Positions 6,253 to 64,000 of a stretch of 64,000 nt of DNA are shown here, one piece after another (within the stretch, counting starts at the first letter, position 1; each line of letters starts with the position of its first letter). The stretch lies in the NCBI GenBank assembly GCA_964016885.1, contig OZ024762.1:3410001-3474000 (forward strand), in the 5' to 3' direction. The notes beneath the pieces were generated by a model that was not told the DNA's origin, did not search any database, and saw only the letters and a list, made by a program, of their open reading frames with translations. Source of the stretch: Eledone cirrhosa (lineage: Eukaryota). A program made the translations under genes and the position numbers.

Positions 6253-6339
6253 ACAGGACTAGAACTGTTTCATTCTTTAGAAATCATCAGATTACTGATG
6301 ATTTCTAAAGAATGAAACAGTTCTAGTCCTGTAGAATCT
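6253..6339 (+). ncRNA. Fold-back module with type I hammerhead motif (family A)
   Basis: Perfect 38-bp arms 6253-6290/6295-6332; CTGATGA-TTTCtaaaGAAT-GAAA-CAG..CTG-TA-GAATCT. Confidence 0.7.
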
Positions 6340-6967
6340 CATCTCTATATATATATATATATATATAGTTTAGGGAACTTAATGATAATTTGTCCATACT
6401 TTCCCCTTTTCCATATAATTGTTTCTACTTTAGGCACAAGGCCAGCAATTACCCAGTACATTACTGGTACTTTAATGCGGTGAAACAAGACTTTTTGTAC
6501 CTCTGTTTGTTGTGCTCCTTGAACTCCATATTTATTATCGTGTAGGTAACATGGTAAAAAGGGTCCCAGTCCACACTGTAAATGTGGAAAACCTGCCAGA
6601 TAGTTCTATACGAGCGAGACACTGTCACCCGATCAATCTTGTCTCAAGTGGGACAATTCTCGTCTAACCCATGCTAGCATGGAAGACAGACGTTAAACGA
6701 TGATGATGATATATATATATATATATATATGTACACACGCATACATACACAAACAACAGACACACACATATATATATATACACAAACATACACAACAGAC
6801 ACTCATACATATGCATATACATAGACTTAGACACAAACACAGACATATATATATACACATATCTAATTATATATATATATTAAATTACCTCTTTCAGTTC
6901 AATATTTTATCCATTCATTGAGATGTCTAAGTATTAGAGACAAATAACATTTTAATTTATATATATA

Positions 6968-7305
6968 TCATCATCATCATTTTTTACATCTGCTTTTCCC
7001 TGCTTGCAAGGGTGGGACGGGAACTGATTCTGGCTTGATTTCTACAGCTGGATGCCCTTCCTAACACCAACCTCATTTACAGTGAGTGCTGGGTGCTTTT
7101 TTTCTGTGGCGCCTACACATCCACTTTACAGTGGAACGATAGGGACCCCAGTCCCTATCATCTCATTTGTACAGCTGAGTAAACTGGAGCAATGTGAAAT
7201 AAAGTGTCTTGTTCAAGGAAACAACACATCACCTGGTCTGAGAATTGAACTCACAACCTTTCGATTGCAAGGTCAATGCTCTAACCACTAAGCCATGTGC
7301 CTCCA
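6968..7305 (-). mobile_element. tRNA-derived CORE-type SINE with RTE tail, full length
   Basis: Reverse complement of 51621-51967; A box TGGCTTAGTGG, B box GAGTTCAATTC. Confidence 0.85.
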
Positions 7306-7904
7306 AAGTAGAAGATATATATATATATATATACATATGTTTTTGCTGGCTTAAAATGTCCACCCTTGGTCCATAATATTATAATAATTCCAACATTTTA
7401 TAATTTTATTACTTAATCCATAGTTGTTGATTCAGAGTCGGCATCACCAGAGTTTATTTAAAGCTTCATCAATATTTCACTATTCATTATGGTAACAGAT
7501 TATAAGAATATTAAAAAAAAAGATCTTTAAAAATTCCCCAAATTTCAAAAAACAGTTAAAAAAAAAAACTGTTTAAAAAATAAACAAAAACAAAAAAAAA
7601 ACAGTTTAAAAAAATAATTTCAAAAACCATTGAAAAACAATTTAAGTATTGCTGGAGGGATGACAACATTTGTGAGAGAGAGAATCCTATTGTGTAACAA
7701 TTATAGGAGATTTTACTTTGAAAGATTGTATTTATATGTTTAGGGTTATTATTAAAAGAAATTTCTCAGTAATCATGAGACATGTTATATTAATACCTGT
7801 AGTTTGGTGCAGAGGTATCAATGGTTACCTGTAGTTGGAAATGTTCTTGATTTAAATTTTAAGATTTGTTTAGCACAGTATACAGGTGTTCATAGGTGAA
7901 GAAT

Positions 7905-8065
7905 TGTTAGAATGTTGGATAGAATGCTTTATGGTATTCATTCCAGCTCTCTGAGTTCAAATCCCGCCGAGGTTAACTTTGCCTTTCATCCTTACGGGGT
8001 CGATAAAATAAAGTACCAGTAATGCACTGGGATAATTGCTGGCCTTGTACCAAAAGTAGAAACAG
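7905..8065 (+). mobile_element. Meta-type tRNA SINE
   Basis: B box gagttcaaatcc then aactttgcctttcatccttacggggtcgataaaataaagtaccag; copies at 29870 (+) and 62815 (-). Confidence 0.7.
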
Positions 8066-8761
8066 TTATTTGACTCATTCTCCCTCGGGACTTTAGACTG
8101 AAGAACTGACCACTAATTGATTTTACATATGTCTTTAACCCATTGATATCAAACATTATTTAGCCAGCAGCTCATGGCAGCTGGTGTGTATGTGTAGGTA
8201 TATATATAGGGCTACTATAGCCCTCCTGGGTCCCACTTGCCATTGGGTAACTTGCCAATTATATATATATATATATACACACACATATATATATATGTTC
8301 AGAAGAGATTGTTTTGGTAAAAATAGGAGCAAGCTCTGTGTAAGTATATTTGTATTTTTATATGTGGGTCTGTATATGTATGTATATGTGTATATGTACG
8401 TGTATATATATGTATATATATATGTATTTGTACATATATGTATATGAGCATATGTATTTGTATGTGGTTATGTATGTTTTATGTATGTATAAGTGGGTGT
8501 ATATCTCTATATATATGTGTATATATTTAAGTGTGTGCGTATGTAGGTAAAGGTGAATGTATGAATGTATATATATATATATGTTCAAGTATGTATATAT
8601 CTATATTTGTATATATGTGTGTGTGTGTGTATTTATGTATATGTTTATGTCTTTATTTTTTCCTTCTTATTTTTTATAATATTTTTATCAATTTTATCAA
8701 GTTTGTATTTTTCTCATATTTATCATATAAAAATCTTTTAAAAATTTAGTTTCTATAGTAA

Positions 8762-9853
8762 TGTGCTAGGGTGGTTTGACCTAAATGGTCATGTTGGATA
8801 ACATTGTGACAGCTATGACAGAATCCATGGAGGCTATGGGTTTGGTACTAGAAATGAGGAAGGCTTCAGAATCCTGGAACTCTGTGACGCTAATAACCTA
8901 ACTATCTGTAATACAAACTTCAAAAAACGAGACAATCATTTGATCACCTATAGATCAGGGGAACACGCCAGTCAGATAGATTATATCCTTACCAGAAGAC
9001 GTGACAGAGTGTCTGTTGTAAACAATAAATCCCTCCCCCGCGATGAATGTACCTCCCAACTTAGCCTCATAGTGAGTGACCTCATAGTCAGGACGAGACG
9101 TACTCGACAACAGAGGAGGACTACCCTAAGGAGAAGAATATGGAAGTTAAAGGACCCCACAGCCAGTAACAAATTTAAAAGCATATTACTTGATGCTTTT
9201 GACAGTAAGGAAGAGCAATTAGAGACACACAATATAGAGGAACAGTGGGAATTCCTGAGAGTTAACCTGCTGAAGGTGACAGATGAAATCTGTGCTGGAG
9301 CAGACCTATAGGTAGGAGGAGAGTAACTTGGTGGTGGAAGAGTAAGGTGGAGGAGTCAATCAAGGCCAAAAAGCAGGCTTGGAAAGTATGGCGGTATGGA
9401 GAAAGTAAAGAACACTATCAAGTGGCCAGGAGGGAAGCTAGGAGACAAGTGTACTTTGCAAGAAGGGAAGCAGAGGAAAGAAAGTTCAAGCATGTTCTGC
9501 AACGTGAGGACCAAAAACGTGAGGTGTTCAGGATTGCTAGGCAATGTGTCAAGGAAAACCATGATATTGTCGGAGAGAAGTGTGTCCGAAATGATGATAG
9601 TGTACTTGCCATCACTGATGCTGATAAGAAGATAGCCTGGAAGTGTCACTACGAGAGGCTACTAAATGAGGAGAATAAATGGGAAAAAGATAGTCTGCCC
9701 CACATCGATCCAATAGAGGGACCATAAAAGATGTAGTGGGATCACAGGTAAGCTATCTAAGAACGTAGATTTTATATGTGGCCGGTGCTCAGGTGCAATA
9801 AGTAGCAGCAAGTGCCCACAGGATACTAGCTCCTTCTATTGCCCAGATGGTTC
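8762..9853 (+). mobile_element. RTE LINE fragment (APE C-terminus plus linker), frameshifted and internally deleted
   Basis: DLNGHVG..HGGYGFGTRNEEG..ICNTNFKK..LITYRSGEHASQIDYIL; then homology to 47003-47455 and a jump at about 9725 to KRCSGITGKL. Confidence 0.9.
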
Positions 9854-9987
9854 TATATATATATGTATGTATATATATATATATATATATATATATATAT
9901 ATGTATATATATATATATCATATATATACTATGAATATAACAGTATCTGTCAACACAACATGTTTACTCTGTCCTATCCTCTCACAG

Positions 9988-62106: not shown

Positions 62107-62239
62107 ACAATATATACCAGTTTTATAAATAAATATTGACATACCCTTTAAATAGAACTTTTGCATACATATATATATATATATATATATATATATATAT
62201 ATATATATATATATATATATATTTGTGTGTGTGTGTGTG

Positions 62240-62420
62240 TCCCGGGTTTAGTTGGGGGTAACCACAGTAAGGCACTCAATACATTAGTAGAGTGTATACA
62301 ACAAATTTAACATAGAAATGGTTTCTACAAGACTAGAACTGTTTCATTCGAAGGAAATTATCTTCGAATGAAACAGTTCTAGTCTTGTAGAAACCATTTC
62401 TATATTAAATTTGTTATATA
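62240..62420 (-). mobile_element. Family A fold-back lacking the CUGAUGA box
   Basis: Arms about 62296-62353/62362-62419 meeting at stem II; family A tail. Confidence 0.65.
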
Positions 62421-62814
62421 TATATATATATATATGTGTGTGTGTGTGTGTGTGTGTGTGTGTAAAAGGTAAACAGAAATAACAATACAATCGGTACAGT
62501 ATATGGAAGGGATATATTAGGTTAACGTTTCGGACGCTAGTCCTTCATCAGAAGAACGAATGAGAAATAAGATAGATTGAGGGGACGGGCGGGCGGGATG
62601 GAATTGGAAACAATGACTTTAGATAAAAATAACAGGTCCATTCATCTTTTGCAAAACTGTTGGTGCTGGCGTTTTGTGTATACAACAGTGTTATCTATCT
62701 TAGTTGATACGGAGTAACTTCCTGGTGATAAGGAGATCCTAGCGACCACTACACGGCAGTAGTATATCCCAAGTAGGTGATACTGAGTGACGGAATATTC
62801 ATTTTATCAAATAA

Positions 62815-62995
62815 TTGTTTCTACTTTTGGCACAAGGCCAGCAATTATCCCAGTGCATTTCTGGTACTTTATTTTATCGACCCCGTAAGGATGAAAGGCA
62901 AAGTTAACCTCGGCGGGATTTGAACTCAGACCATAAAGGACCGTAACTCTATGCTGCAAAGCATGGCGTCCGACACTACCGATACTGCCGATTCA
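62815..62995 (-). mobile_element. Meta-type SINE
   Basis: Reverse complement of 7950-8068 plus head. Confidence 0.7.
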
Positions 62996-63611
62996 CATCA
63001 AATAATGGTAGTTAAGACAGGATTAAATTAATTATGTCCTGCATAAACAAAAACTAGATGATGATGATGATGATGATGATGATGATGATGATGATAATAA
63101 TGATGAAAGACCCGTTACATCATTACTGACGGCTTAGTTACATTAACACTTTGATAAAACAATGTTTTTAAGAAAGGCCGCTGACGATGCTGAAAATCAG
63201 ATTATTAATCTCTAGAAGGAATAATTATTCTATTTTTATACATAATTAAATACACAGTTAATTACTATTATGCCTGTGTATCTTAACTGACTAATTAATT
63301 ATCTGGTCAGTTATTATGTCCGTATTTAATACCATATTGTAGAAACAGACGTGTTTCTTTACTGCAGTAATGGCCGCTGTCAAATTTTTTCATCTCTCTC
63401 TCTCTCTCTCTCTCTCTCTCTCTCTCTCTCTCTCTCTCTCTCTCTCTCTCTCTCTCTCTCTCTCTCTCTCTCTCTCTCTCTCTCCCCCTCTCTCTCTCTC
63501 TCTCTCGACTGGGACTGGCACTGGTCTAGGCTGGTCTGGATACCATTTCTCTGTCACCTGAAGTCTGGATGGCTGCAGGAACAAAGAAGAAACGGTTAGG
63601 CAATGTATATA

Positions 63612-63711
63612 CAGGGTATCCCAATATATATATAGACACACTTCAACAGCATTCTAATAAATATTGTTTGTACAGTTAATCAAAGTGTGTATACATTTTG
63701 GGGACATCTTG
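63612..63711. mobile_element. Tc1/mariner MITE copy
   Basis: Homologous to 32481-32588; TA flanks. Confidence 0.7.
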
Positions 63712-63963
63712 TATATACATACACGATAAAGATAATTGTGAAGTTGGGAGAAAATGTTTACCGTAAGTATATATATATACTTACGATAAATATGTATATG
63801 TAAATACACACACACACACACACACACACACACACACACACACATATATTTATATATATATATATGTGTGTGTGTGTGTATGTGTTGGAGTTCACGAAAA
63901 ATAATTAAAATTGGCAATTAATAATATTTTGTCTAATTATATTGGACAAAAAATAACAAATTA

Positions 63964-64000
63964 GTCACTGAGGAGGTCACAGAATGTGTGACGAAACTGC
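63964..64000 (+). ncRNA. Hammerhead family G, cut by the window edge
   Basis: GTCA-CTGAGGA-G-GTCACAgaatgTGTGAC-GAAAC... Confidence 0.55.

What the first reader, a model, noticed from the sequence alone, without database searches (positions are those of the whole stretch)
6253..64000. Dense swarm of fold-back hammerhead-ribozyme modules in (TA)n tracts
Seen in sequence: about 25 type I hammerhead-like motifs in about 12 unrelated families. A: 6289, 10237, 50812, 51181, 61287. B: 12537, 54274, 62522. C: 10481. D: 10703, ~12990, 15103, 27388. E: 21870, 27629, 62044. G: 20820, 60517, 63964. Others: 35397/36011, 42320, 42878, 25698, 23101, 15441. Most lie in 100-500 bp ORF-less modules with inverted arms and a short unique tail, flanked by (TA)n. 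Established: Penelope-like elements carry minimal type I HHRs in pseudo-LTRs and often insert with an inverted pLTR, and non-coding HHR retrozymes exist in animals. Inference: this genome hosts a diverse microsatellite-targeting population of non-coding ribozyme retroelements, about one per 2.5 kb here, which homology-based repeat annotation would largely miss.
Basis: partly seen in the sequence, partly recalled or inferred. Interest (0 to 1): 0.82.

Follow-up and report, generated by a model that had tools for sequence, protein, structure and literature searches.

The report
Hammerhead-bearing Penelope retroelement stumps, octopod genome
This stretch of a likely octopus-family genome holds about two dozen small hammerhead-ribozyme motifs set in TA repeats; they are likely the cut-down ends of Penelope-like jumping genes, a known arrangement that is unusually dense here, and self-cutting has not been shown.

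Summary
The motifs are real: 19 type I hammerhead hits against 2.1 ± 1.3 in 100 local shuffles. Half (13 of 26), not most, lie in fold-backs. One hammerhead sits about 710 bases behind a Neptune-type Penelope (PLE) zinc-finger/GIY-YIG frame. The head-to-head arms, one-sided tail, TA targets and core variants U3-A8, U10.1·U11.1 and the extra base after A9 are published. Best reading: stumps of PLE insertion, each DNA strand likely priming at a different RNA site (7 of 7 fold-backs in families A and D pair one long with one short end). Two ORF-poor partial tandems may be non-autonomous units. Rfam misses all the motifs, but a curated octopus annotation already gives PLEs 6.8% of the genome. Cleavage, expression and genome-wide density are untested. 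This scan noted the same architecture earlier in other genomes (e.g. a shark). Not found in my searches: hammerheads in octopus PLEs, an A4-core family, the strict long/short pairing.

The parts
42857..44330 (-). 5'-truncated Neptune-type PLE: end of RT region, Cys-rich linker and GIY-YIG frame (43651-44330, frame break near 44229), about 710-nt 3' region, hammerhead J (core 42939, predicted cut 42884), end in (TA)n 27 nt past the cut
50796..51317 (.). Family A fold-back: 201-bp arms 100% identical, cores 50856(-) and 51187(+), 50-nt spacer, tail of about 65-70 nt on the right arm only
10183..10370 (.). Family A fold-back: long arm + (core 10243 with C3 to U), short arm - lacking the 5' core
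61211..61399 (.). Family A fold-back: long arm - (core 61330), short arm +
62240..62418 (.).
6230..6348 (.). Family A fold-back, chimeric: cores 6295(+) and 6290(-); the left arm leaves family A at the predicted cut site and continues as about 24 nt of the family B 3' end
24332..24372 (-). Family A short-end remnant, 3' half of the core only
10412..10652 (.). Family C fold-back, 89-bp arms 92% alike, 30-nt tail on the right; U3-A8 5' core on one arm, GAAA on the other, palindromic stem III
10679..10888 (.). Family D module: short arm - with A4 core (10748), long arm + holding only the tail
12857..13085 (.). Family D fold-back: long arm - (core damaged at the junction, U at position 4), short arm +
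15103..15268 (+). Family D single long arm, A4 core at 15106, stems damaged
27367..27535 (.). Family D module: short arm - with A4 core (27433), long arm + holding only the tail
21820..22137 (.). Family E fold-back: short arm - with core 21925; long arm + starts just past the predicted cut site and carries a tail of about 94 nt
27590..27695 (-). Family E single arm, core 27681, head to head with a family G upstream piece (27713-27754)
62002..62110 (-). Family E single arm, core 62099
12517..12588 (-). Family B copy, core 12570, G12 lost
54259..54398 (+). Family B single arm, core 54277, minimal-hammerhead type, stem I mispaired
62462..62569 (-). Family B single arm, core 62551, about 32 nt missing after the core
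20690..20914 (-). Family G single arm, core 20858 with an extra base after A9; 5' end 56 nt upstream of the core
60400..60560 (.). Family G module: damaged core near 60520(+) with an inverted tail piece
63950..64000 (+). Family G copy, core 63968, cut by the window end
35283..36175 (.). Family H cluster: U3-A8 hammerheads 35486(-) and 36018(+), 189-bp arms 98% alike; an inverted copy next to a partial tandem of roughly 590 bp with no ORF over 65 codons
42066..42790 (-). Element I: core 42394 between two 106-bp direct repeats 532 bp apart (96% alike), TA on both sides; a 104-codon frame of no known family starts in the core
25647..25861 (+). Single-copy candidate K, core 25706, long weak stem II, TA on both sides
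23090..23160 (+). Degenerate single copy L (core 23104, GAAA lost)
22500..22612 (-).
27100..27336 (.).

Best explanation
These are short, dead insertions that carry the hammerhead-bearing ends of many families and were likely laid down by Neptune-type Penelope-like retrotransposons. Shown: the motifs, their families, TA flanks, head-to-head arms, two discrete 3' ends per family, and one copy still attached to a PLE coding frame. Inferred: the element's RT/GIY-YIG protein cuts (TA)n on both strands; each free end primes reverse transcription on element RNA, one at a site 15-30 nt past the ribozyme's cut site (short arm) and the other 60-95 nt further on (long arm, the 'tail'); both cDNAs usually stop early, near the upstream edge of the hammerhead, and are joined head to head. 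The template is most likely the autonomous element's own RNA. The hammerhead probably processes that RNA, but cleavage is untested and may not be needed for insertion.
For: A frame at 43651-44330(-) has 5,101 relatives at E<=0.001. Full-length ones carry RT motifs, a Cys linker and a GIY-YIG-type domain; the Atlas places it with GIY-YIG clusters at 0.96. Hammerhead J lies on the same strand behind it and folds as a three-way junction. Family A ends fall at +53 to +66 or +113 to +129 from C3, family D at +67 to +69 or +156 to +161. 4 of 4 pure A and 3 of 3 D two-armed modules pair one long with one short end (p 0.008 against free choice, post hoc). 13 of 17 A/D arm 5' ends lie at -15 to +16 although long and short arms differ in length (Mann-Whitney p 0.004). 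Opposite-strand joints at the core's upstream edge occur in all four runs laid. 24 of 33 ends abut (TA)4. Published: inverted 5'-truncated copy, one-sided tail and microsatellite bias (PMC8557442; PMC3846280); both strands extended, two RT start sites, tail between them (PMC11167929); opposite-strand hammerhead pairs ascribed to truncated PLEs (PMC4209133). PLEs make up 6.83% of the O. vulgaris genome; my 31 modules cover 12.8% of the window.
Against: Only 1 of about 12 families (J) is tied to a PLE frame; none of A-I was linked to an ORF, because no genome was held. Family A depth falls 9- to 11-fold upstream of the core, three G pieces start within about 6 nt of each other, and both arms of 50796-51317 stop at the same base; these fit short templates with a fixed 5' end as well. 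Elements I and H are partial tandems of about 530-590 bp without a PLE frame, and 75-77-bp head-to-tail joints of family A exist in two runs. Tails of 60-95 nt exceed the published 30-40 bp. Only 3 of 14 folded sites give a three-way junction as the lowest-energy fold; the A copy 51187 and the D copy 27433 are no more stable than shuffles.
Confidence: 0.65

Rival explanations
1. One reading: the main families are independent non-coding RNAs of about 130-600 nt (SINE- or retrozyme-like) that borrow the Neptune protein. The insertion chemistry is the same as in the best explanation; the template is a short RNA of its own.
For: The family A core and tail are held by three organisms while the upstream 140 nt is common only in organism A. 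Depth drops 9- to 11-fold upstream of the core. Shared 5' starts in G. ORF-poor partial tandems I (532 bp) and H (about 590 bp). Head-to-tail 75-77-bp joints. Non-autonomous PLE derivatives are published (PMC8557442; bioRxiv 10.64898/2026.07.22.740005).
Against: No module in the window has two same-strand hammerheads in tandem, the published criterion for an active retrozyme. A fixed 5' end is also expected if RT starts internally near the 5' end of the autonomous mRNA (inference from PMC11167929). The drop upstream of the core is confounded by subfamilies that differ there (loose-end agreement 0.40-0.61). J is attached to a PLE frame.
Confidence: 0.25
2. One priming event followed by snap-back: a single cDNA folds on itself near the hammerhead and copies itself, and the endonuclease trims the second arm at an internal AT-rich site, leaving the tail on one side.
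For: Explains identical arms that turn at the same point (50796-51317, 100% over 201 bp; 62240-62418, 97%) and the one-long/one-short rule; the A short end is AT-rich. Self-priming and endonuclease resolution were proposed in PMC3846280 and PMC8557442.
Against: In D 10679-10888, D 27367-27535 and E 21820-22137 the short arm holds the hammerhead and the long arm does not, so the short arm cannot be a copy of the long one. The chimeric module at 6230-6348 has ends from two families.
Confidence: 0.15
3. Chance motifs in AT-rich hairpins, MITE-like DNA transposons, or assembly fold-back artefacts.
For: AT-rich, repeat-rich sequence; weak folding energies for A, D, K and 22600; one module with perfectly identical arms.
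Against: 14 canonical hits against 0.22 in shuffles. Compensatory changes in E. All four loop II positions, and no core, stem II or stem III position, are among the 40 variant rows shown of 101. Most arms differ by 2-14%. Opposite-strand joints are seen in raw reads of another sample. Ends are asymmetric, unlike terminal inverted repeats.
Confidence: 0.02

Closest known systems
Endonuclease-bearing Penelope-like elements, Neptune type (Craig et al. 2021, PMC8557442; Arkhipova et al. 2013, PMC3846280)
   Same: C-terminal GIY-YIG with a Cys-rich linker; type I hammerhead near the 3' end; heavy 5' truncation; inverted truncated partner; tail on one end only; microsatellite targets; partial tandems.
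   Different: Nearly all copies here are stumps of 40-500 bp; tails are 60-95 nt in A, D and E against 30-40 bp published; only one family could be tied to a coding frame; clade assigned by motif, not by tree.
Minimal PLE hammerheads (Cervera and de la Pena 2014, PMC4209133; core variants in Perreault et al. 2011, PMC3088659)
   Same: Many unrelated families per genome; palindromic short stem III (B, C, E, H); extra base after A9 (B, G); U3-A8 (C, H); U10.1-U11.1 (A, D, K); pairs on opposite strands 100-700 bp apart.
   Different: Families A and D have 4-5-bp stems III closed by large loops. Family D has A at position 4 in 3 of 4 core-bearing copies; the passages read mention U4C only.
In vitro mechanism of the anole Poseidon element PAc (Frangieh et al. 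2024, PMC11167929)
   Same: Two RT start sites downstream of the hammerhead with the tail between them; both DNA strands cut and extended; AT-rich targets.
   Different: That paper saw no difference in start site between strands; here each insertion uses one site of each kind (7 of 7). Different clade; nothing was assayed here.
Animal non-LTR retrozymes (Cervera and de la Pena 2020, PMC7229834; Li et al. 2026, bioRxiv 10.64898/2026.07.22.740005)
   Same: Short, non-coding, low-GC, type I hammerhead, PLE-derived; monomers occur.
   Different: Retrozymes are head-to-tail tandems of 150-450 bp expressed as circles. Here arms are mostly head to head, no same-strand hammerhead tandem lies in the window, and no RNA data were available.

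Membership tests
Type I hammerhead ribozyme | Core CUGANGA...GAAA...UH with stems I-III, above chance | tested here: met
   19 hits vs 2.1; 16 of 26 named sites pass
Type I hammerhead ribozyme | Compensatory changes in stems within a family | tested here: met
   E, 4 pairs, 3 sequences; A, 2 pairs after discounting the chimera; small samples
Type I hammerhead ribozyme | Match to Rfam hammerhead models | tested here: not met
   none at gathering score; none among the 150 rows shown of 517
Type I hammerhead ribozyme | Self-cleavage at the predicted site | not testable with these tools
   no RNA run was listed; needs an in vitro assay
EN+ Penelope-like element (Neptune type) | RT plus C-terminal GIY-YIG with a Cys-rich linker | tested here: met
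   element J only: linker and endonuclease in the window, RT in full-length relatives; Pfam did not hit the window frame and hit 1 of 10 relatives weakly
EN+ Penelope-like element (Neptune type) | Families A-I linked to such a frame | not testable with these tools
   no genome held; metagenome scans empty
EN+ Penelope-like element (Neptune type) | Inverted 5'-truncated partner, head to head | tested here: met
EN+ Penelope-like element (Neptune type) | Tail on one end only | tested here: met
   30 nt in C, 60-95 nt in A, D, E
EN+ Penelope-like element (Neptune type) | Microsatellite target bias | tested here: met
   24 of 33 ends vs 2.8-11.9% background
EN+ Penelope-like element (Neptune type) | Clade placement by RT phylogeny | not tested
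   no named reference sequences were at hand; assignment rests on the linker described in PMC8557442, which Nematis shares
Non-LTR retrozyme | Two or more head-to-tail units, each with a hammerhead | tested here: not met
   none in the window; I and H are partial tandems with one same-strand core; 75-77-bp tandem joints of A exist elsewhere in the genome
Non-LTR retrozyme | No protein coding | tested here: inconclusive
   A, D, G, H, K have no frame over 65 codons; I has a 104-codon frame of no known family; J is ORF-linked
Non-LTR retrozyme | Expressed as unit-length linear and circular RNA | not testable with these tools
   no RNA run listed

The most novel reading that the evidence does not exclude
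Octopods carry hundreds of thousands of hammerheads, far more than any animal count I read, because short non-coding RNAs with a fixed 5' end (families A, D, G), some with an A4 core, have become independent parasites of Neptune elements; and every insertion is made by an asymmetric complex that must prime one DNA strand at the proximal RNA site and the other at the distal one.
Probability: 0.2. Interest if true: 0.72.

Novelty: new member of a known kind. Interest (0 to 1): 0.42.

Why it matters
If the window is typical, octopod genomes hold a very large natural library of hammerhead variants that Rfam does not see (a Rfam-style count for giant squid was 235). Because the stumps are short and numerous, they make an open question directly testable by counting: how PLEs build their inverted arm and one-sided tail. 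A genome-wide long/short rule would constrain the model beyond the 2024 in vitro work. Many copies probably lie in introns on both strands, so active ones could affect host RNAs. As a class of element, though, this is known.

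Tried and rejected
No whole genome is held, so no genome-wide scan or family-to-ORF link was possible. Rfam: the e-value scan's shown rows were microRNA-type noise from TA repeats; at gathering score only a tRNA-like SINE head. My first descriptor demanded a 10.1-11.1 pair and found 3 canonical sites; it was replaced. 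Word-indexed protein searches with the GIY-YIG frame found nothing; the full HMMER scan did. Cluster look-ups gave no informative names. Metagenome scans for the family A motif and for the PLE protein were empty. No RNA holder was listed; this says nothing about expression. Copy number is unresolved: 12,091 contigs of run X1 and 7,334 of 12.5 million reads of X19 were laid. Plain arithmetic on X19 gives 6,000-7,500 family A arms, far below the roughly 480,000 that the window's 11 arms per 64 kb would imply for 2.8 Gb; X19 is reduced-representation and the tool states that summed contig depth is no copy number. Read ends at 51064, 51079 and 51299 in X19 were set aside as likely digest ends (51079 is a GAATTC site). 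Junctions at the predicted cut site (6290 arm, 21990 arm, the 62551 deletion) are anecdotes among some 20 junctions, and no pile-up at the cut site shows among the rows printed; not taken as evidence of cleavage. The 104-codon frame in element I matched nothing. Strand tally of core-bearing arms, 10 + and 17 -, is not significant (p 0.25). Site 15441 rejected. Lunse et al. (PMC5785218) is not held; it may already list the A4 or large-loop variants.

Full report
Host. The window is 35% G+C and rich in TA, CA and ATC repeats. An exon at 19333-19575 has a single database hit, a Quiver/Ly-6 protein of Argonauta hians at 63% identity, so the host is likely an octopod. RTE, CR1 and Dong/R4-like pieces in the window fit the repeat classes listed for Octopus vulgaris (the class names for the window's pieces are my recall). 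No whole genome is held.

Are the motifs there? Yes. A strict type I descriptor found 9 canonical cores against 0.02-0.06 in local dinucleotide shuffles. A relaxed one, written after reading the sequence, found 19 against 2.08 +/- 1.32 (maximum 6 in 100 shuffles); reversed and complemented controls gave 1 each. Family E shows 4 stem II pairs changed on both sides in 3 sequences. Family A shows 5 in stem I, of which 3 come from a chimeric arm. Across thousands of family A records in four runs, the 40 variant rows shown (of 101) include all four loop II positions and none in the core, stem II or stem III. Against this, only 3 of 14 folded sites give a three-way junction as the lowest-energy structure, and 51187 (A) and 27433 (D) are no more stable than shuffles. 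Rfam finds none at gathering score.

Anatomy. 13 of 26 sites lie in inverted-arm modules (my tally). Arms are joined by their 5' ends and point outward into repeats: (TA)4 lies within 12 nt of 24 of 33 hand-placed ends and any alternating dinucleotide run within 12 nt of 28 of 33, against 2.8% and 3.7% of non-repeat positions. Families A and D each have two discrete 3' ends: A at +53 to +66 or +113 to +129 from C3, D at +67 to +69 or +156 to +161. All 4 pure A and all 3 D two-armed modules combine one of each (p 0.008, post hoc; the chimera at 6230-6348 and two single arms were left out). C, E 21820 and several unlisted fold-backs also carry extra sequence on one side only. 13 of 17 A/D arms begin between -15 and +16, although long arms are about twice as long as short ones (offsets hand-adjusted); arms are found through the hammerhead region, so some ascertainment bias applies. 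In three modules (D 10679, D 27367, E 21820) the short arm holds the ribozyme and the long arm holds only the tail, which a single snap-back cannot produce.

Link to Penelope-like elements. A 203-codon frame at 43651-44262(-), extended by tblastn to 44330, has 5,101 relatives. Full-length ones of 700-900 residues carry RT motifs, a Cys-rich linker and a GIY-YIG-type domain, and the Atlas groups it with GIY-YIG clusters. The linker marks Neptune or Nematis elements (PMC8557442, passages). Hammerhead J lies about 710 nt behind the stop on the same strand and the element ends in (TA)n 27 nt past the predicted cut. No other family could be tied to a frame.

Other samples. A family A arm (50997-51317) was laid on four runs at 80% likeness: 12,091 contigs in organism A, 7,334 raw reads in another sample of that species, 8,138 contigs in organism B and 1,611 in organism D. 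Core and tail are held by all three organisms; the 140 nt upstream are common only in A, at about a tenth of the core's depth. Opposite-strand joints with one side at 51184-51202 occur in all four runs, so fold-backs are genome-wide and not assembly errors. Head-to-tail joints of 75-77 bp occur in both runs of organism A. Loose ends behind the long end are TA or CA repeats in the rows shown (476 rows not shown). Copy number stays open: thousands at least, but arithmetic on the reduced-representation run (6,000-7,500) is far below what the window's density would imply.

What is known. Craig et al. (PMC8557442, passages) and Arkhipova et al. [quoted passage not shown] Perreault et al. (PMC3088659, passages) report U10.1-U11.1 and mention U4C. 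Frangieh et al. (PMC11167929, parts 1-2 of 4) show both strands extended, two RT start sites with the tail between them, and insertion without ribozyme activity. Retrozymes are head-to-tail tandems (PMC7229834, passages; bioRxiv 10.64898/2026.07.22.740005, part 1 of 5 and passages; its supplements were not seen). Bonar et al. (PMC13282606, parts 1-2 of 3 and the supplement) assign 191 Mb, 6.83%, 190 families to PLEs in O. vulgaris; at 250 bp a piece that would be one per 3.7 kb (arithmetic only). The giant-squid genome paper counted 235 hammerheads (PMC6962438, passages). The review PMC6765202 was seen as passages. Lunse et al. (PMC5785218) is not held. Searches listed no paper on hammerheads in octopus PLEs, on a natural A4 core or on a strict long/short rule; the library lacks most subscription journals.

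Earlier notes of this scan (unchecked) describe palindromic PLE stumps and 5' ends piling at the hammerhead in other genomes, including a shark; none concerned this genome or this sequence.

Verdict. The swarm is real and is best read as the footprint of PLE insertion: TA cut on both strands, two primings at two RNA sites, early stops near the hammerhead, head-to-head joining (inferred; 0.65 that the templates are mainly autonomous-element RNAs, about 0.9 that PLE machinery made them). Independent non-coding units are a live rival (0.25), strongest for I, H and G. The class and architecture are known. What may be new is the density, the A4 family, the longer tails and the strict pairing of ends. 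New member of a known kind; interest 0.42.

Noticed in passing
window 19333-19575 (+): Last coding exon of a Quiver/Ly-6 gene (63% to an Argonauta hians protein), so part of the window is probably intronic.
   Followed up: partly
window 40380-40718, 57880-58521, 59590-59850 (+): 3' ends of non-LTR elements with a restriction-like endonuclease (Dong/R4-like by recall; zf-RVT at E 4e-5), set in (TACA)n tracts: a second microsatellite-associated system.
   Followed up: no
window 5756-6130, 17870-18062, 21505-21727, 24699-24860: Four more fold-backs without a complete hammerhead, three with extra sequence on one side; 21638-21711 is 70% alike to element I downstream of its cut site. Probably stumps that stopped before the core.
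   Followed up: partly
window 6230-6255 and 27713-27754: Mixed-family joints: a family A arm ending in the family B 3' end, and a family E arm head to head with a family G upstream piece; suggests template jumps between different families' RNAs.
   Followed up: partly
just upstream of cores 27433, 10748, 51187, 25706, 20858, 60520, 63968: An AG, often after a T-rich run, lies 4-8 nt before the core, like the intron end at stem I reported for D. virilis Penelope (PMC4209133). Not seen in B, E, I, J.
   Followed up: no
window 51150-51177 and 27613-27639: Sequence upstream of the family A core resembles, inverted, family E sequence past its cut site (25 of 28, E 0.002; AT-rich, may be chance).
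   Followed up: no
window 39478-39744 (+): Weak tblastn match (E 0.007, 1 of 31 queries) to the N-terminus of a PLE protein; possibly an old remnant.
   Followed up: no
window 37484-37993 (-): Tc1/mariner DDE_3 transposase fragment.
   Followed up: partly
window 13887-14710, 17130-17600, 29490-29790, 30640-31060, 38020-38830: Minisatellite arrays with units of about 20-100 bp; none gave a hammerhead hit.
   Followed up: no
window 42080-42391 (-): A 104-codon hydrophobic frame starting at the AUG inside the core of element I; no family match.
   Followed up: yes
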